A stretch of DNA of 64,000 nucleotides, taken from sequence record MN850609.1. The stretch is one strand, 5' to 3'. Below are positions 432-59,001 of the stretch, piece after piece. The stretch comes from Escherichia phage dhaeg. Below the pieces are notes generated by a model. It was not told the origin of the DNA and ran no database searches. It worked only from the letters and a program-made list of their open reading frames with translations. Position numbers and translations under genes: made by a program. The first letter of the stretch is position 1. Each line of letters begins with the position of its first letter.

Positions 432-591
432 TATAAATAATAATATGGATTGGCTGATGTCATACAGAGCTTTGCTGGTGTATGGGGTTAGCTAATCCTA
501 AGCGGTGGACTACAACTGAGAGACTTGCCGAAAGGAAGTGAAATTCAGAAGAACGTGTCCACCAATCTTTATCTCGAATCGAGAATTTAAA

Positions 592-10880: not shown

Positions 10881-10906
10881 AAAGGAGAGCGTAAGCTCTC
10901 CTTTTT
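10881..10906. terminator. bidirectional terminator between the 10584 ORF and gene 54
   Basis: 10-bp stem aaaggagagc/gctctccttt, loop gtaa, T tract on the plus strand and A tract (T on minus) upstream. Confidence 0.7.
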
Positions 10907-10908: not shown

Positions 10909-11862
10909 TTATAACAACCTGGATACTCCATTATTAATAGCACGCCCACCAAATGTATTAACCAACCCGGTCAATCCACTAGAAGCTCCTGAAAGTCTAC
11001 TTAATTTAGCTACAGAAGAACTTAATGAGTTACTCTCACTTATACCTGCTACGCCTTTAAGGACTTTATCTTCCAGCCATTCATAAGCAGCTTGTTTACC
11101 GACTGCACCCGTCTGTACACTTCTATAAGCAAATGTAACATCAAACGAAGCAATCTGGTTATCGCCATCATAAGATAATTCCGGCGATGAAACACTTACA
11201 GGAACACATCCATTAAGCATTACTACCGTATGTGGCAATCCATTACGAGAATGAAGGTTGACTTGGATATCGGCTTCAACATCCTCTGGCAATGCTCTTA
11301 ATTGTGTAATAGGGTCTTGGACACTGTTGACCCAATCATTAAAAGCACGGTAGTTAGCAGCTTCAGAATCCATACGGAAGCTTAATACCAATGGAGAATA
11401 TTCTCTTCCGGTAATTTTGATATTAGGCGAGTTGTGATTCAAATCCATTTCATAGTTCAAAGTATTATCTGGGATTTTAACAGCATGGACTAAAAGACCT
11501 GCCGTAGGATAAGCCATATTGAAAAAATCCATCAGATAAGTCCCGACTTCAAACTCACCTAGTAAGCTCTGCACAACCCTGGATGACATAGCACCAATCA
11601 GATATTTACTTATGCCTGACTTACGAATCAACTTCTGAGTGCCCGCGGTCACTAATGTCGTAACACCTTGAGTCAACTCTCCTTGAGTAATTCCAAACAA
11701 ATCAGTGTTCAATGGGATATTGTTAAATAAAGCTCCACCGAACTGGTCGAGGAGCGCTTGGGATTTAGAAGAAGGAACTGTAGCAAATACTACACTAAAC
11801 AGGTTATTCCTCTGTAGGTCAATATTAATTGCCTGGTTTTGAAATTCTTGTAAAGTATACAT
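10909..11862 (-). CDS. 54: baseplate tail-tube initiator (gp54)
   Basis: 317 aa (T4 gp54 about 320); synteny 54-48-29-28-27-51. Confidence 0.85.
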   Translation of the reverse strand: MYTLQEFQNQAINIDLQRNNLFSVVFATVPSSKSQALLDQFGGALFNNIPLNTDLFGITQGELTQGVTTLVTAGTQKLIRKSGISKYLIGAMSSRVVQSLLGEFEVGTYLMDFFNMAYPTAGLLVHAVKIPDNTLNYEMDLNHNSPNIKITGREYSPLVLSFRMDSEAANYRAFNDWVNSVQDPITQLRALPEDVEADIQVNLHSRNGLPHTVVMLNGCVPVSVSSPELSYDGDNQIASFDVTFAYRSVQTGAVGKQAAYEWLEDKVLKGVAGISESNSLSSSVAKLSRLSGASSGLTGLVNTFGGRAINNGVSRLL

Positions 11863-12950: not shown

Positions 12951-12958
12951 TATCAATC

Positions 12959-14695
12959 CTAATTAACTTTAGTAGCTTGACGCATACCAGGAGCAGGAGT
13001 AGAAGACTGTGGTGGTAAATTATAACTGGTCTTACTCGTTTTCTTGATATTCGTTTGCTGATTTATTTGAGTTGGAGCTTGCTGACTATATTTAGCATTT
13101 TCCTTTGCTCTCATTTGCTCGTCAACCTTTTTAACCTGGGTGTTTTCAGGAGATTCCGCTACAGAAGCAGGTTTAGGCTTTTCAGCTTCGTTAAATTTCT
13201 CTAAAGATTTATTCATCTTATCAAGTAATTGCTGGATATTAAGGTCCTTAGGTGCTCCACCTTTAGCCATAATAGGGTCAGCCAATTGTTTCTCGATATC
13301 CGCTTTAAATGCCTTGGCATTTTCGATATCTTTAGAATCAGGCTTCATTATATTATCGGCGGTTTGAGTTAAACGAATAATATCGGCCTGTGCTTTATCA
13401 CGTTTCTTGAAATACTCTAAACGTTCTTCTTCAGGGAGGTCACGGAAGCTTGTGTCAATTCCACCTGCGCGTAATTGGTCAGCTTGTTCTTTAGTAAGGT
13501 TACCGTATTTCTCTGCCTGGTTTATAAGCTCGGGTTTATCCTTATACTTCTTATTCATTTTCTCGGCTGCTTCTAAAGCCTCGGCAGAACGTCTATCATG
13601 ATACTTGGCTACTTTAGTTTGGTCTTCGTCATCTAAAGTGGCTCCGGTATTTTGTTGATATGACATTAAAGCGGATGCCTCTACGTTTTCAGCCAACTCG
13701 CCCATACCTGGTATTTTACTTAAAATAGCAGAAATCAATTTAGAAATACCGAGCATTAACAGTTGTGCCATATTTTTGGTAAGATTAACCATACCGCGAA
13801 TAATAGCTTCTGCCAGACCTAGCCAATTTCTTTCGCTAAACATAGCTTCAGCATTCTTGGCCCAGGTCATTAAGCCTTCAAGTACAGGTCCCCACTCTTT
13901 AAACTTATCGTTAAATTTTTTCCATCCTTCATTAAATTGGTCCATGAAATATTGGAAGTATACACGAATAGCATCTATACCAAATATTAAAAGGGCTAAA
14001 CCTGCGGCAAGTTTAGCGGCTTCTGCAGCAGCAGTAATAGTATACTTAAAAAGCATGCCTGAAATTCTATCAGCGACGCCTATAGAAGCTTTAAATCCTT
14101 TTTCGGTTATTTTTGTAAGGGCTTCGATTTTATCAGAAAGAGAAGACTTATCACCTTCTTTACCTTCATCCGAATTTTTAGGAGGCTCTGGCATAAATTC
14201 GGCGTCAGGTTTATTATCTTCAGGCGGAAGAATATCTTCAACAACAGCAGGGACTTTAGGAGTTTCGGCCTTGGGTTCTTCCGGAATAGAGTCTTCAATA
14301 ACCTTTAATGAGCTCCCGTCCGGTGGAATAGAAATACCGGAAAATTTAGCCTCCAACATATTAGAAAGCTTATTAATCTTTTCGTTTAATGCATCCGAAA
14401 GAGCTTTAGACTGTTGGGTTTGTTCTGATATAGCTTCAGCTGTTAATTCTGTTCCAGCGACAACGTCTTGGACGCTTTTATCTACTCTATCTACAGAATT
14501 AATAATCTGATTGGACTTTGTCTCAACCACTTCAGAGAGCAATTCAGACGCCGCCTGGGAATCAGATAAAACATCTGATATATTTCCTAATTCATCGTTC
14601 TGAGTTTGGGCTAGCGCCTCAGCACGACGCTGAGGAGCCATTTCTTCAATCAGTTTATTGCGACGAAAACTATTCTGATTAGATTCATTCTTCAT
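12959..14695 (-). CDS. 29: tail-length tape measure / baseplate hub protein (gp29)
   Basis: 578 aa (T4 gp29 about 590); N-terminus [19 protein letters not shown]; coiled-coil-rich. Confidence 0.85.
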   Translation of the reverse strand: MKNESNQNSFRRNKLIEEMAPQRRAEALAQTQNDELGNISDVLSDSQAASELLSEVVETKSNQIINSVDRVDKSVQDVVAGTELTAEAISEQTQQSKALSDALNEKINKLSNMLEAKFSGISIPPDGSSLKVIEDSIPEEPKAETPKVPAVVEDILPPEDNKPDAEFMPEPPKNSDEGKEGDKSSLSDKIEALTKITEKGFKASIGVADRISGMLFKYTITAAAEAAKLAAGLALLIFGIDAIRVYFQYFMDQFNEGWKKFNDKFKEWGPVLEGLMTWAKNAEAMFSERNWLGLAEAIIRGMVNLTKNMAQLLMLGISKLISAILSKIPGMGELAENVEASALMSYQQNTGATLDDEDQTKVAKYHDRRSAEALEAAEKMNKKYKDKPELINQAEKYGNLTKEQADQLRAGGIDTSFRDLPEEERLEYFKKRDKAQADIIRLTQTADNIMKPDSKDIENAKAFKADIEKQLADPIMAKGGAPKDLNIQQLLDKMNKSLEKFNEAEKPKPASVAESPENTQVKKVDEQMRAKENAKYSQQAPTQINQQTNIKKTSKTSYNLPPQSSTPAPGMRQATKVN

Positions 14696-15206
14696 TTAAG
14701 ATATCCATGATTTTAAGCAATCCTTTGATAGGACCATTAGGACCAGGGATAGCTACAGTAGAAGTTATATCGTCGGCCCATGTAGCAACAAAGGCAGGCA
14801 TATCCAGAAAATCTGGTACATCGTTACCAAGGTAAAGAGATTGTAATACACTATCAACCGGACCAAAGGTTTGGAATGGTTCGTGCGATTTGAATTTAAA
14901 TGTTTTACCTTGGAATTGGAATTCAAGTCGCTGGCAGATATAAAGGTCATTTAGGTTATACGTAAACCCGTCCTTAGTTACCTTTTCTTTCAACCGTCCG
15001 TTGAATTCTAAAAGATGAAGAGCAGCGAAATCGGTTTCGGCCGCAGTTAAACCCTTATAAATGGAATTCATTAATATATGAAGAGCTTTATATGGGTCTT
15101 TTTCATCTTTAACCAATTTTTGGTGTTTAAGACCTAATTTAGGAATGGAAATCTCTTTATCACCCAGCGTTATTTTCTTGATCGGGAGTATCAGTTTTAA
15201 GTTCAT
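14685..15206 (-). CDS. 28: baseplate distal hub protein (gp28)
   Basis: 173 aa from the internal ATG with GAAGG SD (T4 gp28 about 177); overlaps the gp27 3' end in another frame. Confidence 0.75.
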
Positions 15207-16329
15207 TTTTAACCTTCGGTGGTTCTTCAATCTTAATAGGCTTACCATTAGTAAACATATAAAGGTTTGTAATTGATGTATTGTTACTCACTTCATGAAT
15301 AACTTCGTCTACATAAAAATCGTACTGGAATTGGTTTTTAGGGTCATAGAAATTAATCTTATCACCTGGAGTTAATTCAAAGTTACCGTATACCTTACAA
15401 TGAGCATAGCCATCATACTGGGCCATTGTAACTAATCTATCAGCTTCTTCAAATCCGTTTCGGTAGGTATAATCAGAATATCCACCTGAACGAGAAACCA
15501 ATATACTGTTTTGTCCATCACCAAAAGTAATTCGTGTAGCGTTTTTATCTAGGAACGAATGGGCATATACTGTAGCATTTTCGTATGGCTTTCTGGTATG
15601 TTGGTTAGCTTTAGTTAGCCACTCAAAATCAAATGCAATAGGGGTATCCATATCTTGGACGTATTGGCCTATTAAACGAGGCTCACCAACCACAAAATTG
15701 ATAGGCTCCTGATTAACCATAAATTCGTAGTCCATGATAGAAATACCATCTATATCTTCCCAGACAAATACAAATTTATCGGATTCAACAGCCATACCTA
15801 CTTCTCGCACAAATTCCATATATCTGTCCATAGAATCACACCACGGAACATTAGGAACGTAAACGTTTATTCCGTTCAAAGGAGGAGCAAGTAACGGACG
15901 GTCTTGGTAAATAACACCAATCATTTCTGTTAATGTTTCTTGAACGCTAGGGAAGAACATACGTCCGAATTTAAGATTTTCTAAAAAGTGGATAGGGGCG
16001 AGTTGTATTGTTATGATATTGTCGCCCTTAGAATCCACCCCTACTGCAAAGTGTTTACTTCCGTAAATTCTTGATTGGGTACGTTCAGAGTTGGCATTCT
16101 TAACAGAAACTTGGATAATTTGTTCACCATCCATTTTAGTATGAAGGTTTTTTGCATCATAAAACTGGAGCAATCCTTCATTACTACCGTAAAGGCCATC
16201 ACGCATTGTTAGGGTAGTAAATGTCGCGCCTAGTTCAACAAAACGATGCTCTAACCAGGCGTCATAATCTTCGTAAAGGCGTATACTAATATTAGGAAAG
16301 CCTTCACGCTGCATAGTTTTTGAACTCAT
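15160..16329 (-). CDS. 27: baseplate hub protein (gp27)
   Basis: 389 aa (T4 gp27 391); N-terminus ...[41 protein letters not shown] resembles T4 gp27. Confidence 0.9.
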
Positions 16330-17078
16330 TTCTTAAGGTCCTTTTCAACCAAAGACAAAGCAATACCGCGTTCGATTGGAATCATCTGCATAATGCTTTC
16401 TAATGAATAATTGTTCTTTACCAATAAATGGTTTATTTGGTAAAATAAAAATATCTCATCCGGATTGACTATAAGCTTAAACACCTCTAAAATATCGGTA
16501 TACGTAATTGTTCTACGATTACAGCATCCATATTTGAGTTCGAAATGAATAGGGCTTGTTTGTTTGACTATATCCTCTAAAGTGGATAAGTCTATAGCAT
16601 CTATTACGGCCAACTGGTCTTCTTCAGAAAGGTCAGTCCAATTATATGTCCCATTTTCATCTTCGACGGTTTGGAGGGTGTTCAAAATCAATTCAGATTT
16701 GTCGTGATATTCTATTTCCGGAAATTTGAATGTTAGTTTCAAGCCAGCCACTTCAATTGTAGGGTTATCTAACTTGGCCTGTTTCAAATTGAATAAGACT
16801 TGTTTATCCTTTTCACACTTACTGCAAGTGTATCGGATAGGAATTTTGGTCTTGCCGAGTGATGACGTGTAAAGTTCAATGAACATATACGGGCGCCATG
16901 ACATAGGATATTCACCGAAGTATTCTTCCAGTAACTCATCTAAAATTTGTTTTTGCTCTTCAGGTGATTTATTATTCATGTCATTTCGAATCAAAATAAA
17001 ATCACGATAATCAGCTACTGTAAAAGGTTTAAATCGGTGGACTCCATCGGGCATTTCACAACGTACTATATTAGCCAT
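16326..17078 (-). CDS. 51: baseplate hub assembly catalyst (gp51)
   Basis: 250 aa from the internal ATG ([12 protein letters not shown]...) with AAGAGGA SD; T4 gp51 about 249 aa. Confidence 0.75.
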
Positions 17079-17098
17079 AGGGTGTCCTCTTATTGATG

Positions 17099-17110
17099 TA
17101 TTTATAAATA
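17099..17110. promoter_or_regulatory. palindromic divergent late promoter TATTTATAAATA between genes 51 and 26
   Basis: Perfect 12-nt palindrome containing TATAAATA on both strands, about 20 nt upstream of each divergent start codon. Confidence 0.6.
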
Positions 17111-17128
17111 AGCTTAAAGGAGAAGACA

Positions 17129-17752
17129 ATGAATTATACTTTTGACGTAAAAATTAAAAACAAAACCATAAAATGCAGAGCATTTACCCTCAGAGAGTAT
17201 AAGGACTTGCTCCAAGCTAAATTAGAAGGCAGAATAGAGTCCTTTATCAATGAACTCATTTCGAATTGCACAGATGCTCGTGATTTAAACAAGCAAGAAT
17301 CTGAGCTCCTGGTGATAAACCTGTGGGCCCATTCATTAGCTGAAGTTAATATAGAACGTGAGTGGGTTTGTAGTTGTGGTCGCTCACAGGTTGTTCCTAT
17401 GACACTAACTCGCGCAACATTAGGTAAAGAGCCAGATGTTATTAAAGACTTTGGCAACTTTAAAATCGTGTTCAGATATCCTAAACTCTTTGAAGATAAA
17501 AATAGAGCTATGATGGTCGCAGGGTGTATCGATTATATTTTAACTTCTGCAGGCGAAAAGCTTTTTCTTTCCGATTTAAGTGATGCGGAACTTGATGACC
17601 TTTATTCTGTGATAACAGAAAAAGATATAAAAGAAGTTTATGATGCTCTAGTTGCCCCTAAGCCTATTTTGGCCATACCTATTTCTTGTGAATGTGGTGA
17701 ACATACCGTCCATGTTATTGAGGGACTTAAAGAGTTCTTTAAGGTGATGTAA
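17129..17752 (+). CDS. 26: baseplate hub subunit (gp26)
   Basis: 207 aa (T4 gp26 about 208); AGGAG SD; divergent from 51 as in T4. Confidence 0.75.
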   Translation: MNYTFDVKIKNKTIKCRAFTLREYKDLLQAKLEGRIESFINELISNCTDARDLNKQESELLVINLWAHSLAEVNIEREWVCSCGRSQVVPMTLTRATLGKEPDVIKDFGNFKIVFRYPKLFEDKNRAMMVAGCIDYILTSAGEKLFLSDLSDAELDDLYSVITEKDIKEVYDALVAPKPILAIPISCECGEHTVHVIEGLKEFFKVM

Positions 17753-18141
17753 TGAATATCAATAAAATGTATTCAGATTTAGACCCTGAAATGAGGACGT
17801 CTTGGAATAGAGACGTCGCTAAAGCTACAGGGGCCCGTGCAGTAAAAAACAGTTTGCTAGGCATTATTACCACCCGTAAGGGTTCTCGCCCTTTTATGCC
17901 TGAATTTGGTTGTGATATCAGTAATCAACTATTTGAGAATATTACTCCATTAATCACAGATACCATTAAGCGTAATATAGTTTCCGCTGTGCGGAACTTC
18001 GAACCTAGAATTTCTGCTCTTGCCGTAGGCGTTACCCCTGTTTATGATGACAACTCTATTATAGTAACTGTCCAGTTTAGTATTGTTGATGACCCGGATA
18101 CATTAGAGCAAATTAGAATCCAGCTCTCACAGAGTGGTTAA
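17752..18141 (+). CDS. 25: baseplate wedge protein gp25 (gpW/lysozyme-like fold)
   Basis: 129 aa; MNINKMYSDLDPEMRTSWNRD...GSRPFMPEFGCDISNQLFEN...VQFSIVDDPDTLEQIRIQL matches remembered T4 gp25 almost residue by residue. Confidence 0.92.
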   Translation: MNINKMYSDLDPEMRTSWNRDVAKATGARAVKNSLLGIITTRKGSRPFMPEFGCDISNQLFENITPLITDTIKRNIVSAVRNFEPRISALAVGVTPVYDDNSIIVTVQFSIVDDPDTLEQIRIQLSQSG

Positions 18142-18199
18142 TTGCTGTTCAAATGAATAGTGTATAATGGTCCTATGGTTATTACACAGGAAACATGCG

Positions 18200-18634
18200 A
18201 TGAGTAAAGAGATTGAATATAAATTGGAATCATTCCAAGATGCATTAGATGAAGATTTAAAGATTGATGGGACCCGTTTACAGTATGAAGTACAGAACAA
18301 CGTTTTGCTGCACAGCAAATGGCTAAGGCTGTATACGAATTGTAAGAAAGAGATAATGCGATTAGAAATCCAGAAAAAGACCTCTCTTAAGAAGCGATTA
18401 GATTTCTACACGGGACGTGGAGAGCCCGGTGATGAGGTTTGTATGGACCAGTATGAGAAGTCAGAATTAAAGACTGTAATGGCCGCAGATTCTAGCGTGA
18501 TTAAAATAGATACATCAATTCAATATTGGGCTTTATTACAGGACTTTTGTAGTTCAGCCCTTGATGCTATTAAAGCGCGAGGTTTTAACCTTAAGACCAT
18601 GCATGAGATGAGGCAATTTGAGGCAGGTAAATAA
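18200..18634 (+). CDS. uvsY: recombination mediator UvsY
   Basis: About 144 aa from the internal ATG with AGGAAA SD; TRLQYEVQNNVLLHSKWLRLY...YEKSELKTVMAAD...IQYWALLQDFCSSALDAIKARGF...FEAGK matches remembered T4 UvsY. Confidence 0.88.
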   Translation: MSKEIEYKLESFQDALDEDLKIDGTRLQYEVQNNVLLHSKWLRLYTNCKKEIMRLEIQKKTSLKKRLDFYTGRGEPGDEVCMDQYEKSELKTVMAADSSVIKIDTSIQYWALLQDFCSSALDAIKARGFNLKTMHEMRQFEAGK

Positions 18635-18732
18635 TGAGACGTACTAAAAATACCAAACCCATTAAAGTAGATGCCGATAAGATGAAACTTCTCCAAGAAT
18701 TCATTAATGCCGCTTTAGCAAGTAATAAATAG
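18634..18732 (+). CDS. small ORF (32 aa), uvsY.-1-like by position
   Basis: TAATG-coupled ORF MRRTKNTKPIKVDADKMKLLQEFINAALASNK; called by position only. Confidence 0.3.
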   Translation: MRRTKNTKPIKVDADKMKLLQEFINAALASNK

Positions 18733-18760
18733 ATATGTAAGATAAACTAAGGAGACAATC

Positions 18761-18928
18761 ATGTCAGATAAGATTTGCGTTGTCTGTAAAACTCCAATCG
18801 ATGCTGCATTGGTTGTTGAAACAGAAAAAGGTCCGGTTCATCCGGGTCCATGTTATAATTACGTTCAAAGCATGCCTGTTACGGAAAACACTGAAGAACA
18901 GCTGAACGAAACCCAATTATTACTTTAG
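18761..18928 (+). CDS. small Cys-containing protein (55 aa), uvsY.-2-like by position
   Basis: AGGAG SD; MSDKICVVCKTPIDAALVVETEKGPVHPGPCYNY... with CxxC plus a downstream Cys. Confidence 0.4.
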   Translation: MSDKICVVCKTPIDAALVVETEKGPVHPGPCYNYVQSMPVTENTEEQLNETQLLL

Positions 18929-18958
18929 TCTAGTGTGTATAGCCATTTTATGGTTATT

Positions 18959-18993
18959 GGCCCTTCCGAAAGGTTGGGCCCTTTTTTGTTTTT
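18959..18993 (+). terminator. rho-independent terminator between convergent uvsY-side genes and uvsW.1
   Basis: ggccc...gggcc stem with inner GAAA loop, followed by cttttttgttttt. Confidence 0.6.
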
Positions 18994-19219
18994 AGAACTC
19001 TTCTTGCTCTTCGTCATCCATGGATTCTAATTCAGCCCGTTTACCTGCCAGGGCATCACGAACACTGATATCATCCGAATCTCGAAGTTCAGCTTCTTTA
19101 CTACGAGTTTTGTAATACTTCTCCAATTCCTTCAAACCGTCCATGGTTTGACAAGAACTAATTTTAGACATGAAGCTCTCGATAGAGGCTTCATAGATAA
19201 CTTCTTTAAAGGACTTCAT
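18992..19219 (-). CDS. uvsW.1: UvsW.1-like small protein
   Basis: 75 aa; ATGA-coupled to the uvsW stop; T4 UvsW.1 is about 76 aa. Confidence 0.6.
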   Translation of the reverse strand: MKSFKEVIYEASIESFMSKISSCQTMDGLKELEKYYKTRSKEAELRDSDDISVRDALAGKRAELESMDDEEQEEF

Positions 19220-20712
19220 AAATCCACCTGTTTCATTACGTAATTAAATTTCTCGTCAGCATAACGTTGAATACGTTCTAAGGCATGTTTTAATGCATAA
19301 TTCAAATGAACATATTTCTTTTTAGCATTTGCTGATTTAGGCTTAACGCCCATGTCGTCTATAATGTCCCAAACTTGTGCTGTTGATTTAGAAGCATGTT
19401 TACGGAGCACACGACCTATTGTCTGGAGTACAATGATTTTGGATTTTACCGGATGTGCAAATATTACATGGTGGAGGTTCTTAACGGAAATACCAGTAGA
19501 GAACACACCATAACTTGCCACAACAATAATACCCTTACCATTTTCCGCCATTACTTTAAGAGCATTACGAGTTTCTGTATTAACTTCACCTGATACGTAA
19601 TAAACTTCTTTATGTTGCTCTTTAACCATTTCAAAAAGAGTTTTACCGTGCTCGATGTTTTTAAACATCAGGAATACGTTCTCTTCTTTCTTAGCGAGTT
19701 TAACAGCTAAATTAGCAACCCATTTATTACGACGAGTAGCCTTAGTAATGACTTTAATTTCTGATTGGTAATCTTTACCTTTCATCTTAACAGTGAATTC
19801 ATCCGGATAACGAAGGAAAATACTGTTTATTTTTAAATCAGTTACCTGTCCTTCTTCCATTAACTGTGAAGTGGATACTGGCTTAAACACATCACCAAAC
19901 AAACCCATATATTGCATTAAATTGGCTTTACCGTCTTTTAAAGAACCGGACAAACCGAATTTAAACATACAATTGGTAAGGCCTTCGATGATGGTAGAAA
20001 TTGATTTACCTGTTGCCAAATGGCATTCGTCATTCATAAACATACCAAACTGAGCAAACCATTCTTTAGGTTGTTTAATAGCCGTTTGATAAGTTGAAAC
20101 ATAAATCATTGCATCAGAATCACGAGCAGTACCTGAACGAATACCAAGCATAGCGGCTTTAGGGAACAAACGATAATCGATGAAGTCATTAATCATCTGG
20201 TCGACAAGTGCAGTAGTAGGAACTAAGATAAGAATTTTACCTTCATAGTTCTCAACGTAATATCGACTCAGGAGCGCCTGAATCAATGATTTACCTGCGG
20301 ATGTAGGTAAATTCAGAATTGCACGACGTTTTGTCAGACCGTTGTATACGGCTTCATTCTGGTACCAATGTGGCTCAATCTTGGTAGAACCTGAATAAAT
20401 CTCTTGTGAAGCCACCCATGAGTCAAAATCTTCGCGAGAAATATCTTCCTGTTCAAGAATACGTGGGTCTATCCAAAGAGAGTATTCAAACTGGTCAGCG
20501 AATTTTTTAATTTGTGGGACTAGACCATACGGAAGTTTACGGTTATAATCTAGAAGACGAATTCTCCCGTCCCATTGCCCGTAACGGTATTTAGGGTTAA
20601 ATTTATATCCATCAGCTTCAAAGCTGAAATAGTCTCTGAGTTCGTAGAAGGTGGATTCATCACACTCAACACGAACATGACTAAAATTATCAAAATGTAC
20701 TTGAATTTGCAT
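19216..20712 (-). CDS. uvsW: UvsW RNA-DNA / DNA-DNA helicase
   Basis: 498 aa; helicase motifs LPTSAGKS (Walker A) and MNDECH (DECH box); extensive match to remembered T4 UvsW. Confidence 0.92.
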   Translation of the reverse strand: MQIQVHFDNFSHVRVECDESTFYELRDYFSFEADGYKFNPKYRYGQWDGRIRLLDYNRKLPYGLVPQIKKFADQFEYSLWIDPRILEQEDISREDFDSWVASQEIYSGSTKIEPHWYQNEAVYNGLTKRRAILNLPTSAGKSLIQALLSRYYVENYEGKILILVPTTALVDQMINDFIDYRLFPKAAMLGIRSGTARDSDAMIYVSTYQTAIKQPKEWFAQFGMFMNDECHLATGKSISTIIEGLTNCMFKFGLSGSLKDGKANLMQYMGLFGDVFKPVSTSQLMEEGQVTDLKINSIFLRYPDEFTVKMKGKDYQSEIKVITKATRRNKWVANLAVKLAKKEENVFLMFKNIEHGKTLFEMVKEQHKEVYYVSGEVNTETRNALKVMAENGKGIIVVASYGVFSTGISVKNLHHVIFAHPVKSKIIVLQTIGRVLRKHASKSTAQVWDIIDDMGVKPKSANAKKKYVHLNYALKHALERIQRYADEKFNYVMKQVDL

Positions 20713-20726
20713 GTCTAATTCTCAGT

Positions 20727-20748
20727 TATAAATATAATTATATTTATA
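20727..20748. promoter_or_regulatory. divergent late promoter pair (TATAAATA plus strand for 20768 gene; TATAAATA minus strand for uvsW)
   Basis: tataaata at about 20727-20734 and tatttata at about 20741-20748 in the 55-nt divergent intergenic region. Confidence 0.55.
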
Positions 20749-20767
20749 CACCAACAAGAGACTAATT

Positions 20768-21439
20768 ATGGATACTCAATATATTGAAGAGCTTCGTGCA
20801 CTCGAAGATAAAAAAGAAGCTAAAGCTAAGTTAATCGAATACGGCGAACAATTCGGTTTGAAACTTAAGAAAACCCGTTCGTTTGATAATTTGATTATCG
20901 ATATCTCTGAAGGCCTTAAAGCCCTGGCTGATGAACCACTTCCAGAAACCGAAGGTTTGTCTATTTCTGATTTGATTGATGCCGCCGACGAACTCACAGG
21001 CGCTAACGAATTTGTTGATGGTGCCGAACCCGCCAAAGAAGAGGCTACCCTATTATTTGATGCCCCTGAAGCGGTAGTTGAAGTTATTGAGGTAGCCGAA
21101 CTTCCTAAGGTAGAGATTATTGAAGAAGACGTCCCGTTTGTCGAAGAGAAATTCAAAGAGGCTGTGGCCGAGGTTATTGAATCTGAAAAACCTGTATTCT
21201 CTTTACCTGAAAACTTTAGCCCTAATCTTTTACTCATTGGTAAAAACCCAGGGTATTGTACTGTGCCTTGGTGGATTTATCAATGGATTACCGAAACCCC
21301 TGATTGGAAAGAACGCCCTAAAGATTTCCAACACCCATCTGCCCACCAAACACTATTCAGTCTGATTTATTACATCAATCGTAATGGTTCAGTATTAGTA
21401 CGTGAAACGCGTAATTCATCTTTCGTAACTTTAAAATAA
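20768..21439 (+). CDS. acidic protein, inh-like by position, with C-terminal WW/DW/RNG module
   Basis: 223 aa; highly acidic N-terminal two-thirds; C-terminal PWWIYQWITETPDWKERP...INRNGSVLVRE echoes the C-termini of both Hoc-like proteins; T4 inh occupies this position. Confidence 0.45.
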   Translation: MDTQYIEELRALEDKKEAKAKLIEYGEQFGLKLKKTRSFDNLIIDISEGLKALADEPLPETEGLSISDLIDAADELTGANEFVDGAEPAKEEATLLFDAPEAVVEVIEVAELPKVEIIEEDVPFVEEKFKEAVAEVIESEKPVFSLPENFSPNLLLIGKNPGYCTVPWWIYQWITETPDWKERPKDFQHPSAHQTLFSLIYYINRNGSVLVRETRNSSFVTLK

Positions 21440-21448
21440 GGGTAAAAT

Positions 21449-22861: not shown

Positions 22862-22863
22862 TA

Positions 22864-22881
22864 AAGGGCCGCAAGGCCCTT
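22864..22881 (+). terminator. hairpin aagggcc-gcaa-ggccctt after hoc
   Basis: 7-bp stem directly after the hoc stop; modest T tract. Confidence 0.5.
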
Positions 22882-22946
22882 ATTTAGTTTATGATAATGT
22901 TTCGGGAGATTAAGTTATTGACGAATAATTTTTAATAGGTGGATAT

Positions 22947-23126
22947 ATGAAATTTAACAAAGATATAGGGTTGTTGGTTTTCTTTATAGTGCTGTTTTTG
23001 TTTTCGTTAATTTCATTAACTAGTGGGTTGTTTGCTTCTATATTGGCTCTTTTCACATGCATTAGTTCCTTTTTTGGGATAATAGCTACTATAGATAAAA
23101 TTTTACATACCAAAAAGGGCCCGTAG
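22947..23126 (+). CDS. small two-helix membrane protein (59 aa), not in the ORF track
   Basis: ATG preceded by AGGTGGA; MKFNKDIGLLVFFIVLFLFSLISLTSGLFASILALFTCISSFFGIIATIDKILHTKKGP; stop lies in the downstream terminator stem. Confidence 0.45.
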   Translation: MKFNKDIGLLVFFIVLFLFSLISLTSGLFASILALFTCISSFFGIIATIDKILHTKKGP

Positions 23127-23133
23127 GCCCTTT
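23114..23133. terminator. bidirectional terminator aaagggcc-cgta-ggcccttt between the convergent hoc-type genes
   Basis: 8-bp stem flanked by A run upstream and T run downstream, so it reads as a terminator on both strands. Confidence 0.65.
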
Positions 23134-26925: not shown

Positions 26926-26947
26926 AAAGGGACCTTACGGTCCCTTT
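26926..26947. terminator. bidirectional terminator aaagggacc-ttac-ggtcccttt between rnlB and the gene 24 paralogue
   Basis: 9-bp stem; T tract downstream on the plus strand and on the minus strand; overlaps the gene 24 paralogue stop codon. Confidence 0.7.
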
Positions 26948-29538: not shown

Positions 29539-29546
29539 TATTTATA
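29539..29546 (-). promoter_or_regulatory. late promoter TATAAATA for gene 24
   Basis: Reverse complement of tatttata about 29 nt upstream of the gene 24 ATG. Confidence 0.6.
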
Positions 29547-29598
29547 AAAGTTGTTTACAGCAAGGTTCCCACGTGTTACTATAGTACAGAAACAAGAA

Positions 29599-29618
29599 TG
29601 GGAGACCGAAGTCTCCCA
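29599..29618 (-). terminator. hairpin tgggagac-NNNN-gtctccca after gene 23
   Basis: 8-bp stem 16 nt past the gene 23 stop; T-rich on the minus strand after the stem. Confidence 0.6.
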
Positions 29619-29633
29619 TAATAAGGTTAGGTC

Positions 29634-31214: not shown

Positions 31215-32030
31215 TTAAGAAATTCGAGATGCTGCGATTGCAGACAGGTCCGCGAAGGACAGGGTAGGCTTAGCGCCTTTTTCTTCAACTGCTTCCGAAA
31301 TATAATTCAGTGCTGCAGCATCGTCTTCAGTTTTATTTATAGCGGCTTCAGTGATTGGTTTTTCAACGTCGGTCTGACCCTTAACCATTTCAACGATAGC
31401 GCCAATTTTTTTACCAAATGCATCGGAATAATCCATGCCTTCTACCAGAGAACTAACTTTTTCTTTCTGAGATTCAGTCAGGTCTTTGGTTGCTTCCATA
31501 ACAGCTTGTTCACGCTGTACGTAATTAATATATGCGTCACGCTTGCCAACTTCTTCGAACAAACGAGCGGTTTCAGCTTTCTGTTCAGCCAATTCTTCTT
31601 CCATTTCAGCGACAACGTCTACTGCTTCTTCTGGAACAACCACGTTATGTTCAACAAACAGTTCTTTCATACCCATCAACATGGATTCGAACAGTTCGGC
31701 TTTAATACCTTTATCAACAGCCAGCTGGTTTTCAGCCATCCATTCTTTAGCGACGTGGTCAAGGAAACGACCGGCAGCTTCTTGGATTTTCTTATCAGCT
31801 TTTTCTTCAGCTTCTTCTTTATTTTTCTCAACTTCTTCTTCCGCTTTTTCAGCGATTTTAGCGATATGAGATTCAGCCAGTTTAACGGCGTGTTGCTTGA
31901 CGGTAGCTTCGAATACAGTGCCGAAAGTTTCTTTTGCTTCCGGAGAAATATTAACTGATTCGAAAATACTGTCAAGAGCAACGGAAGCATCAATATTCTG
32001 TGCTTCGGCGATCAGTTGTTCTTTAAGCAT
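31215..32030 (-). CDS. 22: prohead core scaffold protein gp22
   Basis: 271 aa; acidic, Lys/Glu-rich coiled-coil scaffold; between 21 and 23. Confidence 0.85.
   Translation of the reverse strand: MLKEQLIAEAQNIDASVALDSIFESVNISPEAKETFGTVFEATVKQHAVKLAESHIAKIAEKAEEEVEKNKEEAEEKADKKIQEAAGRFLDHVAKEWMAENQLAVDKGIKAELFESMLMGMKELFVEHNVVVPEEAVDVVAEMEEELAEQKAETARLFEEVGKRDAYINYVQREQAVMEATKDLTESQKEKVSSLVEGMDYSDAFGKKIGAIVEMVKGQTDVEKPITEAAINKTEDDAAALNYISEAVEEKGAKPTLSFADLSAIAASRIS
31334..31341 (-). promoter_or_regulatory. candidate late promoter TATAAATA for gene 23, inside the gene 22 coding region
   Basis: Reverse complement of tatttata about 140 nt upstream of the gene 23 ATG; T4 is remembered to have its gene 23 late promoter inside gene 22. 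Confidence 0.45.
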
Positions 32031-32057: not shown

Positions 32058-32065
32058 TATTTATA
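32058..32065 (-). promoter_or_regulatory. late promoter TATAAATA for gene 22, overlapping the gene 21 stop
   Basis: Reverse complement of tatttata about 28 nt upstream of the gene 22 ATG. Confidence 0.55.
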
Positions 32066-32696: not shown

Positions 32697-33124
32697 TAGT
32701 TAAGTCCAAAGGCTTTACGTTTAGAACGAGCTTTCTTACGCTTACGTTCAGCACGTACTTGAGTAGACGGGTTAGCACGTTTGGTTTTAGACGCTTTGCG
32801 AGCAATCTGACGGCGTTTTGCTTTAGACAACCCAGTCGTTTGATAAGCGTTGCGTTGACGGGTTTTAATATCTTTAGTACGAGTAAGCTCACCTTTAGAA
32901 GAGACGTGCTTAACGATAAATTCGTTAAGAGCCATATTTTCATTCAAAGAGGCAATGGCGATAGCTGTATCGATATCACCATCAGCAATCATGTTCTCTA
33001 CAAGATTATTTATATCGCTTTTCTCGAGGGCTTCAGAAAGAGTAGCAAAACGTCCCTGTGCTTCTGGAATTTTGGCCTCTACGCTTTCTAGAGTTAATTC
33101 GTAATCATCAGGGATAAGGAACAT
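32696..33124 (-). CDS. 68: prohead core protein gp68
   Basis: 142 aa with basic C-terminal tail; size and order match T4 gene 68. Confidence 0.7.
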
Positions 33125-34976: not shown

Positions 34977-35000
34977 TAGAGTCTCCGATGAATGGGATAA

Positions 35001-35014
35001 GGAGCCGAAGCTCC
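35001..35014 (-). other. hairpin ggagc-NNNN-gctcc in the gene 20 leader
   Basis: 5-bp GC stem between the late promoter and the gene 20 RBS. Confidence 0.4.
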
Positions 35015-35024
35015 TTTATAATTC

Positions 35025-35032
35025 TATTTATA
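35025..35032 (-). promoter_or_regulatory. late promoter TATAAATA for gene 20
   Basis: Reverse complement of tatttata between the gene 19 stop and the gene 20 start. Confidence 0.6.
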
Positions 35033-35543: not shown

Positions 35544-35564
35544 GTTCCTGGCCACACCAGGAAC
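35544..35564 (-). other. 5' UTR hairpin (gttcctgg-ccaca-ccaggaac) overlapping the gene 19 RBS
   Basis: 8-bp perfect stem between the late promoter and the ATG; the AGGAA SD lies within the stem. Confidence 0.5.
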
Positions 35565-35577
35565 GTTCTGATTAATT

Positions 35578-35585
35578 TATTTATA
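35578..35585 (-). promoter_or_regulatory. late promoter TATAAATA for gene 19
   Basis: Reverse complement of tatttata about 40 nt upstream of the gene 19 ATG. Confidence 0.6.
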
Positions 35586-37722: not shown

Positions 37723-40032
<2,310 letters not shown>

Positions 40033-42668: not shown

Positions 42669-42676
42669 TATTTATA
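42669..42676 (-). promoter_or_regulatory. late promoter TATAAATA for gene 13
   Basis: Reverse complement of tatttata about 22 nt upstream of the gene 13 ATG. Confidence 0.6.
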
Positions 42677-42680
42677 GCAA

Positions 42681-42700
42681 AAAAGGGCCGAAGCCCTTTT
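42681..42700 (-). terminator. terminator hairpin aaaagggc-cgaa-gccctttt after wac
   Basis: 8-bp stem with T tract immediately after the wac stop. Confidence 0.65.
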
Positions 42701-42702
42701 TA

Positions 42703-49676: not shown

Positions 49677-49684
49677 TATTTATA
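49677..49684 (-). promoter_or_regulatory. late promoter TATAAATA for gene 9
   Basis: Reverse complement of tatttata about 27 nt upstream of the gene 9 ATG. Confidence 0.6.
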
Positions 49685-49690
49685 CCCCCG

Positions 49691-49710
49691 AAAGGGCCTT
49701 GCGGCCCTTT
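49691..49710 (-). terminator. terminator hairpin aaagggcc-ttgc-ggcccttt after gene 8
   Basis: 8-bp stem flanked by T tract directly after the gene 8 stop. Confidence 0.65.
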
Positions 49711-58978: not shown

Positions 58979-59001
58979 TATAAATAATATTAATATTTAT
59001 A
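58979..59001. promoter_or_regulatory. divergent late promoter pair between genes 53 and 4
   Basis: tataaata at about 58979-58986 (plus, gene 4) and tatttata at about 58994-59001 (minus-strand TATAAATA, gene 53) in a 46-nt intergenic region. Confidence 0.6.

What the first reader, a model, noticed from the sequence alone, without database searches (positions are those of the whole stretch)
17099..17110. Palindromic and divergent late promoters, and a recurring hairpin-plus-TATAAATA junction
TATTTATAAATA is a perfect palindrome giving a TATAAATA box to both the 51 and 26 directions. Divergent pairs also occur near 20727-20748 and 58979-59001. A hairpin family AAAGGGCC-N4-GGCCCTTT recurs at about 22864, 23114, 26926, 42681 and 49691, twice immediately followed by a late promoter, which points to a reused terminator-promoter junction module.
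Basis: seen in the sequence. Interest (0 to 1): 0.4.

Follow-up and report, generated by a model that had tools for sequence, protein, structure and literature searches.

The report
T4-type late promoters and terminator hairpins
These are the ordinary late-gene promoters (TATAAATA boxes, three pairs firing in both directions) and operon-end RNA hairpins of a T4-like coliphage, inherited at the same spots as in phage T4 rather than copied around as a module.

Summary
The window is a Dhakavirus (JS98/JS10-like T4-type phage, about 100% identical to Escherichia phage dhabil). TATTTATAAATA lies at 17099-17110 between divergent genes 51 and 26. Paired boxes lie at 20727-20748 (uvsW|inh) and 58979-59001 (53|4). 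All five hairpins exist, and two abut a late box (wac|13, 8|9). It is not chance: 12 of 18 boxes lie in the 3.8% of DNA that is intergenic, all pointing at a gene start. The palindrome is expected 0.06 times per window and the paired boxes 0.00 times.

It is also not new. T4 carries the identical palindrome at 26|51, the same box-7 nt-box at 4|53, and a hairpin abutting TATAAATA at 8|9. All three divergent arrangements are conserved across T4-like genera.

The "reused module" idea holds only as recurring architecture. The copies share nothing beyond about 20-36 nt of functional core. Orthologous junctions keep their position while stems change by compensatory substitutions. At wac|13 the hairpin is nearly universal but the box is optional. 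Hairpins mark late-operon ends, and a promoter with no -35 element can sit directly against them. The 8|9 hairpin has a poor U-tract and may only attenuate.

Side finding: AAAGGGCC hairpins bound indels around hoc.

The parts
17099..17110 (.). Palindrome TATTTATAAATA: two back-to-back late -10 boxes overlapping by 4 bp. P51 is 17106->17099 on the minus strand and P26 is 17103-17110 on the plus strand. Predicted starts are about 17093 (-) and 17116 (+).
   Evidence: The distances to the ATGs are 20 and 18 nt. The identical palindrome is in T4 at 26|51 and in 13 of 14 distinct 51|26 gaps down to about 61% gp25 identity. The start sites are inferred from the -13..-6 rule (PMC1524935).
20727..20748 (.). 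Face-to-face late boxes with a 6-nt spacer: Pinh (20727-20734, +) and PuvsW (20748->20741, -). Predicted starts are 20740 (+) and 20735 (-).
   Evidence: The 6-nt spacer is invariant in all genera sampled, T4 included, where the first box reads AATAAATA.
58979..59001 (.). Face-to-face late boxes with a 7-nt spacer: P4 (58979-58986, +) and P53 (59001->58994, -). Predicted starts are 58992 (+) and 58988 (-).
   Evidence: T4 has TATAAATA-N7-TATTTATA at 4|53, and relatives have spacers of 7-8 nt.
42669..42701 (-). The wac|13 operon boundary. Reading the minus strand: wac stop (42703), hairpin AAAAAGGGC-UUCG-GCCCUUUUU plus one further U (42701->42680), 'GC', then the late box P13 (42676->42669), 21 nt before the gene 13 ATG.
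   Evidence: -14.2 kcal/mol. A hairpin is present in 61 of 68 distinct orthologous junctions, and a box follows in 21 of those 61.
49677..49710 (-). The 8|9 operon boundary. Reading the minus strand: gene 8 stop (49712), hairpin AAAGGGCC-GCAA-GGCCCUUU (49710->49691), CGGGGG, then the late box P9 (49684->49677), 26 nt before the gene 9 ATG. The U-tract has only 3 U's.
   Evidence: -16.4 kcal/mol. The junction is present in 11 of 11 distinct orthologous sequences and in T4, with different stems. The terminator scan does not call it.
22864..22881 (+). Hairpin AAGGGCC-GCAA-GGCCCUU immediately after the hoc stop codon (22861). It ends the Pinh->inh-hoc unit and is the left boundary of a small-ORF cassette.
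   Evidence: (-14.9 kcal/mol).
23114..23133 (.). Bidirectional hairpin AAAGGGCC-CGTA/UACG-GGCCCUUU. It sits at the 3' end of the 59-aa ORF (+) and of the hoc-like gene (-, stop at 23135), and it is the right boundary of the cassette.
   Evidence: Indel breakpoints in IME08 and IME341 fall at this hairpin.
26926..26947 (.). Bidirectional terminator AAAGGGACC-N4-GGUCCCUUU between the convergent genes rnlB (+, stop at 26920) and 24b (-, stop at 26947).
   Evidence: which lists it on both strands. T4 has the same stem with a different loop at 24|rnlB.
29539..29619 (-). The 23|24 boundary: hairpin AUGGGAGAC-UUCG-GUCUCCCAU (29619->29598) after the gene 23 stop, then the late box P24 (29546->29539) 51 nt later, 28 nt before the gene 24a ATG.
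   Evidence: (-15.2 kcal/mol).
34999..35032 (-). The 19|20 gap in reversed order: late box P20 (35032->35025) directly after the gene 19 stop, then hairpin AAGGAGC-UUCG-GCUCCUU (35016->34999), which starts at about +4 of the predicted P20 transcript.
   Evidence: -11 kcal/mol, z = -1.9.
35544..35585 (-). The 18|19 gap in reversed order: late box P19 (35585->35578), then hairpin GUUCCUGG-UGUGG-CCAGGAAC (35564->35544) in the 5' leader.
   Evidence: T4 has two hairpin+box units in the same gap.
10881..10904 (.). Bidirectional terminator AAAGGAGAGC-GUAA-GCUCUCCUUU between alt.-3 (+) and gene 54 (-). It ends the P51->51-27-28-29-48-54 unit.
   Evidence: (-16.8 and -15.9 kcal/mol), where it is the top hit.
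32058..32065 (-). Late box P22, overlapping the end of gene 21 and lying 27 nt upstream of the gene 22 ATG.
   Evidence: T4 has the same context (junction 21|22).
37723..37730 (-). Late box P18, overlapping the end of gene 17 and lying 29 nt upstream of the gene 18 ATG.
   Evidence: T4 has a box at the same place (junction 17|18).
31334..31341 (-). Late box inside gene 22, 140 nt upstream of gene 23 (the P23 counterpart).
   Evidence: T4 has a box at the equivalent position inside gene 22 (junction 22|23).
33007..33014 (-). Late box inside gene 68, 310 nt upstream of gene 21. It is probably a real internal promoter.
   Evidence: T4 has a box inside gene 68 (L005 position 29134).
432..439 (+). 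Late box directly after the gene 31 stop codon, 152 nt upstream of rIII.
   Evidence: No cross-phage comparison was made.

Best explanation
The window is the late-gene half of a T4-type phage. The TATAAATA boxes are its late promoters. They are read by host RNA polymerase core carrying the phage sigma gp55 and the co-activator gp33, and they are activated by the gp45 sliding clamp.

The three paired sites are conserved bidirectional late promoters at the points where late operons diverge (51|26, uvsW|inh, 53|4). In the palindrome the two -10 boxes overlap by 4 bp, back to back. In the other two pairs the boxes face each other across 6-7 nt, so the two predicted open complexes melt essentially the same DNA. 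In each case only one polymerase can occupy the site at a time. I infer that direction is chosen by the orientation of the incoming clamp.

The GC-rich hairpins, with A-tract/T-tract flanks and UUCG, GNRA or UACG tetraloops, are RNA elements at the 3' ends of late transcription units. Most are intrinsic terminators, and those between convergent genes work in both directions. Some act as attenuators or 3'-end stabilisers instead.

Where two late operons lie head to tail, the next promoter sits a few nucleotides after the hairpin. This is possible because a late promoter needs no -35 element. The hairpin-plus-box junction is therefore an operon boundary compacted by selection on a tightly packed genome. 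It is inherited in place, not copied as a cassette.

Shown here: sequence, placement, statistics, conservation and stem covariation. Inferred: transcript start and end positions, mutual exclusion of the two polymerases, direction choice by clamp orientation, and termination efficiency.
For: Identity and gene map:
- The window matches phage dhabil at about 100%, and JS10 supplies T4 gene names.

Promoters:
- 12 of 18 boxes are intergenic, and all 12 point at a same-strand start, 18-52 nt away except the rIII box at 152 nt.
- The 16 well-placed boxes have 75-100% A/T from -5 to +3, A at +1 in 13 of 16, and no conserved -35. This matches the published description of T4 late promoters: an 8-bp TATA box, an AT-rich downstream segment, no -35 element, and late transcripts of either polarity (PMC2988020; PMC1524935).
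- JS10 encodes gp55, gp45 and gp44/62.

Conservation:
- The palindrome is in T4 and in 13 of 14 distinct 51|26 gaps.
- The uvsW|inh spacer is always 6 nt, and the 53|4 spacer is 7-8 nt.
- Clamp orientation sets the polarity of activation, and gp45 sits at the upstream end of the promoter complex (PMC2988020).

Hairpins:
- They are stable, lie directly after stop codons, and include the top terminator-like sites in the scan.
- Boxes and hairpins together give a consistent operon map: P53->8 | P9->wac | P13->...; P20->23 | P24->24b; P51->54; Pinh->hoc.
- The junction at 8|9 is present in 11 of 11 distinct sequences with five different stem cores counting T4. A hairpin is present at wac|13 in 61 of 68.
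- 7 of 8 stem pairs change on both sides, and 88.6% of cells are paired against 18-70% in slid registers.
Against: - No transcript ends were measured for this phage. Start and stop positions are extrapolated from T4 rules.
- The T4 review itself cautions that not all listed consensus sites are proven active in vivo.
- The boxes at 36327 and 38225, deep inside genes 18 and 17, have no T4 counterpart and may be chance matches.
- The total number of terminator-like sites is not above shuffles (22 against 15.4 +/- 4.4, and 18 against 15.2 +/- 3.8). Only the strongest, intergenic ones stand out.
- The 49691 hairpin has only three U's before CGGGGG, and the scan calls neither hairpin that abuts a late box. 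'Terminator' may be the wrong word for 8|9.
- The alignment used for covariation was selected for having a hairpin, which inflates pairing of the inner pairs.
- gp33 was not looked up.
Confidence: 0.88

Rival explanations
1. The hairpin+TATAAATA junction is a true repeated or mobile regulatory cassette, a late-promoter analogue of the PeSL and PmSL cassettes of T4-type phages. On this view it was copied to several places and serves as a recombination linker for shuffling late genes.
For: - PeSLs (stem-loop plus early promoter) and PmSLs (stem-loop plus middle promoter) exist and mediate indels. One published stem-loop consensus, A3-4G3-loop-C3T3-4, matches the AAAGGGCC hairpins (PMC4122927; PMC2839356).
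- In the hoc region, two AAAGGGCC hairpins bracket a 59-aa ORF that is absent from IME08 and JS10. A second indel in IME341 starts at the same hairpin.
- The repeat finder groups three of the hairpins into one family, D13.
Against: - Similarity among the copies stops at the functional core: 36 nt at 67-75% identity, with flank identity around the random null. Real early-promoter cassettes in the same window are 83-93% identical over 55-60 nt.
- The two hairpin+box junctions sit between core structural genes at positions conserved down to 38% protein identity, and their stems diverge independently.
- Hairpin and box occur independently at wac|13.
- The hairpins that bound indels in the hoc region are not followed by late boxes.
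Confidence: 0.07
2. The hairpins are mainly RNA-stability, processing or attenuation elements, not efficient intrinsic terminators. They would act as barriers to 3' exonucleases or as 5' protective stem-loops. Late operons would then be largely read through, and the downstream late boxes would only boost transcription.
For: - The 8|9 hairpin has UUU followed by CGGGGG, and the 'TTTCGGG' tail is conserved in most sampled sequences with 50-98% gp9 identity.
- In the 19|20 and 18|19 gaps the hairpin lies downstream of the box, in the 5' leader.
- The loops are the extra-stable UUCG, GNRA and UACG types.
- At wac|13 in many genera the hairpin abuts the Shine-Dalgarno sequence with no promoter after it, so gene 13 must be expressed by read-through there.
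Against: - Four of the five named hairpins, plus 10881 and 29598, have good U-tracts, on both strands where genes converge.
- Bidirectional symmetry (A-tract, stem, T-tract) is what termination in both directions would need. RNA stability alone would not require it.
- This rival is not exclusive of the main explanation: an element can terminate some transcripts and stabilise those it terminates.
Confidence: 0.3
3. The palindrome and the inverted box pairs are binding sites for a dimeric DNA-binding protein, for example an A/T-binding late regulator such as DsbA, rather than pairs of promoters.
For: - Perfect dyad symmetry is typical of dimer operators.
- The T4 review reports DsbA sites overlapping two late promoters.
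Against: - Each half-site is exactly the 8-bp late consensus. Each lies 18-33 nt from a start codon and has the AT-rich -5..+3 context of single late promoters.
- The symmetry takes two different geometries: a 4-bp overlap at one site and a 6-7 nt spacer at the other two. A single dimer would not fit both.
- One relative replaces the palindrome with TATAAATATTTATA. That keeps both boxes but changes the dyad.
- The reported DsbA affinity is low and the gene is non-essential.
Confidence: 0.04
4. The motifs are chance matches in an AT-rich genome.
For: - The genome is 60% A+T. Shuffles give 8.6 boxes per window, so several of the 18 could be random, notably 36327 and 38225.
Against: - Intergenic enrichment with P about 1e-13 and fully consistent orientation.
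- The composite motifs are expected 0.00-0.06 times per window.
- Cross-genus conservation at the same junctions.
Confidence: 0.01

Closest known systems
Bacteriophage T4 late promoters (gp55 sigma, gp33 co-activator, gp45 sliding-clamp activator)
   Same: - The same 8-bp TATAAATA box, AT-rich -5..+3, no -35 element, and placement upstream of orthologues of T4 late genes on either strand.
- Many sites are positional orthologues of T4 boxes: 26|51, 4|53, inh side, 8|9, 17|18, 18|19, 19|20, 21|22, inside gene 22, inside gene 68, and upstream of gene 24.
   Different: - Nothing in kind.
- This Dhakavirus has a late box before gene 13 where T4 has none.
- It has a perfect TATAAATA on the inh side where T4 has AATAAATA.
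- T4's segE, segD and segC insertions are absent.
Overlapping divergent late promoters of the T4 baseplate hub cluster (genes 51 and 26). From memory, and not retrievable here: Scarlato et al. 1989, Virology 171:475.
   Same: The same locus and the identical 12-bp palindrome TATTTATAAATA in T4 DNA.
   Different: Only the flanking leader sequences differ.
Intrinsic (Rho-independent) terminators and stable tetraloop hairpins of T4 intercistronic regions. From memory: C(UUCG)G hairpins, Tuerk et al. 1988 PNAS. Terminators, including bidirectional ones, are catalogued for T4-like genomes in Nolan et al. 2006, PMC1524935.
   Same: A GC-rich stem, a UUCG, GNRA or UACG tetraloop, a flanking A-tract and T-tract, and placement directly after stop codons, with two-strand symmetry between convergent genes.
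   Different: The 8|9 member lacks a canonical U-tract, and two members lie in 5' leaders rather than at 3' ends.
PeSL and PmSL cassettes (promoter-early or promoter-middle stem-loops) of T4-type phages (Arbiol 2010, PMC2839356; Comeau 2014, PMC4122927)
   Same: - A composite of stem-loop and promoter in a short intergenic space.
- A stem-loop consensus of the A3-4G3-loop-C3T3-4 type.
- In the hoc region the hairpins bound indels, as PeSLs do.
   Different: - The promoter is the late type, which those two papers do not describe.
- There is no ~100-bp conserved cassette sequence.
- The junctions lie between core genes, not in hyperplastic regions, and are not associated with indels.
- True PeSL-like early cassettes do occur elsewhere in the window, at 1427-1481/1870-1924 and 62598-62657/62949-63008.
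T4 gene e-type control, where a late promoter inside a hairpin gives late transcripts that lack the arm masking the ribosome-binding site (reviewed in PMC3014915)
   Same: A hairpin and a late promoter occur together next to a translation start.
   Different: At 42680 and 49691 the whole hairpin lies upstream of the box and does not include the Shine-Dalgarno sequence, so no unmasking logic applies.

Membership tests
T4-type late promoter | An 8-bp TATAAATA element (A tolerated at the first position) | tested here: met
   There are 18 exact matches, and 14-16 are well placed. Orthologous sites in relatives show TATAAATA, AATAAATA or CATAAATA.
T4-type late promoter | No conserved -35 element, and an AT-rich segment just downstream of the box | tested here: met
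   Across 16 sites, -5..+3 is 75-100% A/T against 60% for the window, and no column between -43 and -14 is conserved. The description is from PMC2988020.
T4-type late promoter | Located upstream of late (virion and morphogenesis) genes, on either strand | tested here: met
   The boxes precede genes 51, 26, uvsW, inh, 24, 23, 22, 20, 19, 18, 13, 9, 53 and 4.
T4-type late promoter | The phage encodes gp55, gp33 and gp45 with its clamp loader | tested here: inconclusive
   The genes lie outside the window. The close relative JS10 encodes gp55, gp45 and gp44/62. gp33 was not looked up.
T4-type late promoter | gp55-dependent primary 5' ends about 6 nt downstream of the box, late in infection | not testable with these tools
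   It needs RNA 5'-end mapping. A T4 dRNA-seq data set exists (GSE255091, bioRxiv 10.1101/2024.04.04.588121), but its TSS table is not held here.
Intrinsic (Rho-independent) terminator | A stable GC-rich stem-loop | tested here: met
   The stems are 7-10 bp with 4-5 GC pairs and 4-nt loops, at -11 to -17 kcal/mol.
Intrinsic (Rho-independent) terminator | A U-tract immediately 3' of the stem | tested here: inconclusive
   Met for 22864, 23114 (both strands), 26926 (both strands), 10881, 29598 and 42680 (GCCC then U6, partly inside the extended stem). Not met for 49691, which has UUU then CGGGGG.
Intrinsic (Rho-independent) terminator | Located downstream of a stop codon at the end of a transcription unit | tested here: met
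   All five named hairpins begin 1-6 nt after a stop codon. They coincide with unit ends defined by the next late box or by a convergent gene.
Intrinsic (Rho-independent) terminator | RNA 3' ends map to the U-tract | not testable with these tools
   It needs Term-seq, 3' RACE or in vitro termination assays.
PeSL/PmSL mobile regulatory cassette | A sigma-70-like early promoter, or a Mot-box middle promoter, combined with the stem-loop | tested here: not met
   The promoter at 42669 and 49677 is the late TATAAATA type. No TTGACA/TTTACA-N17-TAnnAT element lies in these junctions.
PeSL/PmSL mobile regulatory cassette | Copies conserved in sequence over roughly 100 bp | tested here: not met
   Similarity extends over only about 36 nt at 67-75%, and the flanks are near the random level.
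PeSL/PmSL mobile regulatory cassette | Flank ORFans and coincide with indel breakpoints between close relatives | tested here: inconclusive
   Not met for the two hairpin+late-box junctions, which are conserved between core genes. Met for the promoter-less hairpins at 22864 and 23114 around the 59-aa ORF.
Gene e-type hairpin with internal late promoter (translational unmasking) | The late box lies inside the hairpin, and the hairpin sequesters the Shine-Dalgarno sequence or start codon | tested here: not met
   The boxes lie 3-6 nt 3' of the complete hairpins, and the SD and ATG are 10-26 nt further on and unpaired.

The most novel reading that the evidence does not exclude
The AAAGGGCC-type hairpins, including those fused to late promoters, may do more than end transcripts. 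Two readings are not excluded.
(a) They act as recombination linkers in late regions, a late-promoter counterpart of PeSL cassettes. The three alternative gene arrangements bounded by these hairpins around hoc hint at this.
(b) Placing a terminator 3-6 nt before a promoter that has no -35 element lets a polymerase released at the hairpin be recaptured by gp55/gp33/gp45 at the next box. This would couple the output of successive late operons.
Neither was tested here.
Probability: 0.1. Interest if true: 0.45.

Novelty: already known. Interest (0 to 1): 0.12.

Why it matters
It matters little as a discovery. It confirms that a sequence-only reader correctly recognised the T4 late-transcription grammar in an unlabelled Dhakavirus window.

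The comparative work adds three modest, useful points:
- The three bidirectional late promoters are deeply conserved in exact geometry: a 4-bp overlap, a 6-nt spacer and a 7-8-nt spacer. That makes them good natural substrates for testing how clamp orientation selects direction.
- Terminator hairpins at late operon boundaries are positionally ancient and show clear stem covariation, while the adjacent promoter can be gained or lost.
- The same hairpin type marks indel breakpoints in the variable hoc region.

The predicted operon map can guide annotation or engineering of therapeutic Dhakaviruses.

Tried and rejected
- Rfam scan of the whole window: no family reached its threshold.
- The T4 GenBank record in the collection carries no promoter or terminator features, so T4 was compared by sequence only.
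- The T4 genome review (PMC150520) is not held.
- Searches for the 1989 paper on overlapping baseplate promoters found nothing. That citation therefore rests on memory.
- The T4 dRNA-seq TSS table that could have verified 5' ends at the orthologous T4 sites is not among the held supplements.
- The gp26 protein anchor returned only six near-identical Dhakavirus loci, so the gp25 anchor was used instead.
- The generic terminator scan gives totals no higher than shuffles, and it misses 42680 and 49691 because its U-tract window starts after the A-U extended stem. It was used only to rank sites.
- The gene e-type translational unmasking model was considered and rejected on geometry.
- The idea that the junction copies are homologous repeats was tested by flank identity and repeat finding, and rejected.
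Full report
**What the window is.** Bases 15000-21000 match Escherichia phage dhabil (MN850621.1, genus Dhakavirus, Tevenvirinae) at about 100%, and JS10/JS98 at about 96%. T4 gene names from JS10 and the dhabil annotation give the gene map:
- gene 31 and early genes on the plus strand up to 10874;
- the baseplate hub genes 54-48-29-28-27-51 on the minus strand (10909-17078);
- genes 26-25-uvsY on the plus strand from 17129;
- uvsW on the minus strand, ending at its ATG at 20712;
- inh-hoc on the plus strand (20768-22861);
- a long run of minus-strand late genes (24, 23, 22, 21, 68, 67, 20, 19, 18, 17-13, wac, 12-9, 8-5, 53) up to 58966;
- genes 4-2-3-1-57A-57B on the plus strand from 59013.

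**Checking the observation.**
- *Palindrome:* TATTTATAAATA is at 17099-17110. It supplies one exact TATAAATA on each strand, 20 nt from the gene 51 ATG and 18 nt from the gene 26 ATG.
- *Other pairs:* the two other pairs are exact.
- *Hairpins:* all five exist. Three fit the stated consensus within one mismatch. The one at 26926 has a GGGACC core and the one at 42680 a GGGC core.
- *Abutting a box:* the hairpins at 42680 and 49691 are followed by a late box on the minus strand after 3 and 6 nt.
- *Further members:* a systematic stem-loop inventory found 29598 (UUCG loop, 51 nt before the gene 24 box), 10881, 1359 and 6287. It also found two gaps where the order is reversed, with the box first and the hairpin in the leader: 35025/34999 before gene 20 and 35578/35544 before gene 19.

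**Is it more than chance?** Yes.
- There are 18 boxes against 8.6 +/- 3.0 in dinucleotide shuffles.
- Twelve of the 18 lie in the 3.8% of the window that is intergenic (binomial P about 1e-13, somewhat liberal because intergenic DNA is more AT-rich). Every one of those points at a same-strand start codon, 18-52 nt away for 11 and 152 nt for the rIII box.
- Two more overlap the stop codons of genes 21 and 17, 27-29 nt before genes 22 and 18.
- The boxes inside gene 22 (140 nt before gene 23) and inside gene 68 have T4 counterparts at the same places.
- Only 36327 and 38225 look like possible chance matches.
- The palindrome is expected 0.06 times per window, box-N5-9-inverted box 0.00 times (2 observed), and the hairpin consensus 0.03 times (3 observed).
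- The hairpin RNAs fold at -11 to -17 kcal/mol, mostly with z <= -3.

**What the boxes are.** The 16 well-placed boxes have the context described for T4 late promoters. From -5 to +3 they are 75-100% A/T against 60% for the window. Position +1 is A in 13 of 16 and -1 is T in 13 of 16. No column is conserved around -35. The literature describes an 8-bp TATA box at -13 to -6, no -35 element, about 50 sites in T4, and late transcripts of either polarity (PMC2988020; PMC1524935). The close relative JS10 encodes gp55, gp45 and gp44/62.

**The divergent pairs are conserved, in two geometries.**
- *51|26.* T4 has the identical 12-bp palindrome at 26|51. Using gp25 as anchor, the palindrome is present in 13 of 14 distinct 51|26 gaps down to about 61% gp25 identity, while the flanks diverge. 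The one exception (L157) has TATAAATATTTATA, which keeps both boxes in a different register. Here the boxes are back to back and overlap by 4 bp. With the -13..-6 rule, the predicted starts are about 17093 (-) and 17116 (+).
- *uvsW|inh and 53|4.* The plus-strand box lies to the left of the minus-strand box, so they face each other. The spacer at uvsW|inh is exactly 6 nt in every genus sampled, including T4, and the spacer at 53|4 is 7-8 nt. The predicted starts (20740/20735 and 58992/58988) are 4-5 nt apart, the transcripts do not overlap, and the two open complexes would melt nearly the same DNA.
- *Mechanism (inferred).* In all three sites two polymerases cannot fit at once. Activation requires the nick in the non-transcribed strand, so clamp orientation sets polarity, and gp45 sits at the upstream end of the complex (PMC2988020). 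I therefore infer that the orientation of the arriving clamp chooses the direction at these sites. From memory, overlapping divergent late promoters at the T4 baseplate cluster were mapped experimentally (Scarlato et al. 1989). That paper could not be retrieved here.

**What the hairpins are.** Each starts 1-6 nt after a stop codon.
- Those between convergent genes (10881, 23114, 26926) are symmetric (A-tract, stem, T-tract) and score as terminators on both strands.
- On the transcribed strand the loops are GCAA, UACG, GUAA, UUCG and GCAA, the extra-stable tetraloop classes.
- Boxes and hairpins together give a coherent operon map:
  - P53->53-5-...-8, ending at hairpin 49691; then P9->9-12-wac, ending at hairpin 42680; then P13->13-14-15-16-17;
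  - P20->20-...-23, ending at hairpin 29598; then P24->24a-24b, ending at hairpin 26926;
  - P51->51-...-54, ending at hairpin 10881;
  - Pinh->inh-hoc, ending at hairpin 22864.
- One caveat: the 8|9 hairpin has only UUU followed by CGGGGG, and the generic scan calls neither late-box-abutting hairpin. For 42680 this is a technicality, because GCCC is followed by six U's that are partly paired with the A-tract. For 49691 it suggests attenuation or RNA stabilisation rather than efficient termination.

**Is the hairpin+box junction a reused module?** Three tests say it is a recurring architecture, not a copied sequence.
1. *Within the window,* the copies are alike only over the core. Family D13 covers 36 nt at 67-75% identity. 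The 30-nt flank identities are 0.17-0.47 against a null of 0.26 +/- 0.08, with 3 of 20 comparisons above the null's 95th percentile of 0.40. In contrast, true repeated early-promoter cassettes in the same window are 83-93% identical over 55-60 nt and have stem-loops straddling the -10, which is the PeSL signature.
2. *At orthologous positions,* the junctions are old.
   - At 8|9 all 11 distinct sequences (gp9 identity 98% down to 38%), plus T4, have stop codon, hairpin, 5-9 nt, then T/AATAAATA.
   - Their stem cores are GGGCC, GGGACC, GGAGAC, GGAGC or GGGAGCC, and their loops GCAA, UUCG, GAAA, CUAGU or CAU.
   - At wac|13 a hairpin is present in 61 of 68 distinct sequences, with 14 stem cores.
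   - On a loop-anchored alignment, 7 of 8 stem pairs change on both sides, and 88.6% of cells pair against 18-70% in slid registers. The caveat is that the rows were chosen for having a hairpin.
3. *Hairpin and promoter are separable.* At wac|13 only 21 of the 61 hairpins are followed within 12 nt by a late box (15 TATAAATA, 6 CATAAATA). T4-type phages and many others go straight from the hairpin to the Shine-Dalgarno sequence.

The simplest reading is that head-to-tail late operons need an end signal and a start signal in a very short gap. Because the late promoter has no -35 element, the start signal can sit directly against the end signal. The GGGCC-tetraloop-GGCCC stem recurs because it is a short, very stable solution that is also common at these sites in other genera.

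**Comparison with known systems.**
- The promoters meet the testable criteria for T4-type late promoters. What remains untested is 5'-end mapping and gp55 dependence.
- The hairpins meet the terminator criteria, except for the U-tract at 49691.
- The junctions fail two defining PeSL/PmSL features, namely promoter class and extended sequence conservation.
- The gene e-type arrangement, with a late box inside a hairpin that masks the ribosome-binding site (PMC3014915), does not apply. Here the whole hairpin lies upstream of the box and does not include the Shine-Dalgarno sequence.

**Side finding relevant to the module idea.** Between hoc and the convergent hoc-like gene, the window has hairpin, then a 59-aa hydrophobic ORF, then a second hairpin with the same AAAGGGCC stem (22862-23134).
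- IME08 and JS10 have a single hairpin at this site. IME08 lacks exactly 22866-23111, with both breakpoints inside the hairpins.
- IME341 keeps the cassette but jumps from the second hairpin to about 25306, using a microhomology (ATACCnAAAnGGGCC), and so lacks hoc2 and most of the next gene.
- Its first hairpin has the loop TTGC, the reverse complement of the window's GCAA.
- So hairpins of this type do mark recombination breakpoints in a variable region, as described for PeSL stem-loops. These particular hairpins are not attached to late boxes, however.

**Verdict.** Everything central to the finding is established T4 biology, present at orthologous positions in T4 itself, so it counts as already known and of low interest. 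The residual novel readings are hairpin+late-box units acting as recombination linkers, and polymerase hand-off from terminator to promoter. Neither was tested, and I consider both unlikely.

Noticed in passing
window 22862-23134: A cassette lies between the hoc stop codon and the stop of the convergent hoc-like gene. It consists of hairpin AAGGGCC-GCAA-GGCCCTT, a 59-aa hydrophobic ORF (22947-23126, MKFNKDIGLLVFFIVLFLF...) whose stop codon sits in the loop of the second hairpin, and hairpin AAAGGGCC-CGTA-GGCCCTTT. dhabil, CLB_P2, Ec2-ASingh and IME341 have it. IME08 and JS10 lack it and have a single hairpin there. IME08's breakpoints fall inside the two hairpins. This is a PeSL-style indel, but with no obvious promoter.
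   Followed up: partly
window 23133-25305 versus L007 (IME341) 1206-1320: IME341 lacks the hoc-like gene and most of the following collagen-repeat gene. The junction is at the second hairpin and uses a 13-of-15-nt microhomology (ATACCnAAAnGGGCC) with window 25306-25320.
   Followed up: partly
L007 (IME341) 963-980 versus window 22864-22881: The stems are the same, but the loop is TTGC in IME341 and GCAA in the window. These are exact reverse complements, so this is a loop flip of a palindromic-stem hairpin between close relatives.
   Followed up: no
window 1427-1481 / 1870-1924 and 62598-62657 / 62949-63008: These are repeated early-promoter cassettes, 93% and 83% identical. They have TTTACA-N17-TACTAT-type promoters and stem-loops that straddle the -10 (for example GGTACAGGT...ACCTGTACC at 1859-1889, and GGGCT...AGCCC). 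They look like genuine PeSL-type elements in the early regions of this phage.
   Followed up: partly
window 29554-29582 (+): An early-type promoter (TTTACA-N17-TACTAT, with TG before the -10) lies in the 23|24 gap on the strand antisense to the late genes. It points straight into hairpin 29598-29619 and then into gene 23 antisense. JS10 has a small plus-strand ORF in this gap and T4 has segD. In the window no ORF follows it.
   Followed up: no
window 49685-49693 and loci L008-L018: The spacer between the 8|9 hairpin and the gene 9 late box keeps a conserved TTTCGGG(G) motif in nine of the ten distinct sequences with 50-98% gp9 identity (one reads TTTAGGG). It takes the place of a U-tract. Its role is unknown. 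It could form a small alternative CCC-UUUC-GGG pairing with the 3' arm of the hairpin.
   Followed up: no
locus L157, about 613-626: One T4-like contig (71% gp25 identity) replaces the 51|26 palindrome with TATAAATATTTATA. The two boxes face each other and overlap by 2 bp, instead of lying back to back and overlapping by 4 bp.
   Followed up: no
window 36327-36334 and 38225-38232 (-): Exact TATAAATA boxes lie deep inside genes 18 and 17, with no counterpart in T4. They could be chance matches, or internal late promoters, since T4 gene 17 is annotated with internally initiated products.
   Followed up: no
window 556-5638 versus MN850621.1: The dhabil GenBank record appears to lack about 5 kb that the window contains, from rIII to the 5' part of the ligase gene. 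In the record the ligase CDS is a 456-nt fragment at the record's end, and gene 31 sits at the record's start. The best full-length match to this stretch is Dhakavirus CLBP2 at 96.7%.
   Followed up: partly
window 6339-10526; 26947-29510; 21449-22861; 24011-25516: There are tandem gene duplications (altA/altB, 72-78% over repeat blocks spaced 2070 nt apart; gp24a/gp24b), internal ~285-nt Ig-like repeats in hoc, and collagen-like GGxCCx repeats in the minus-strand gene 24011-25516.
   Followed up: no
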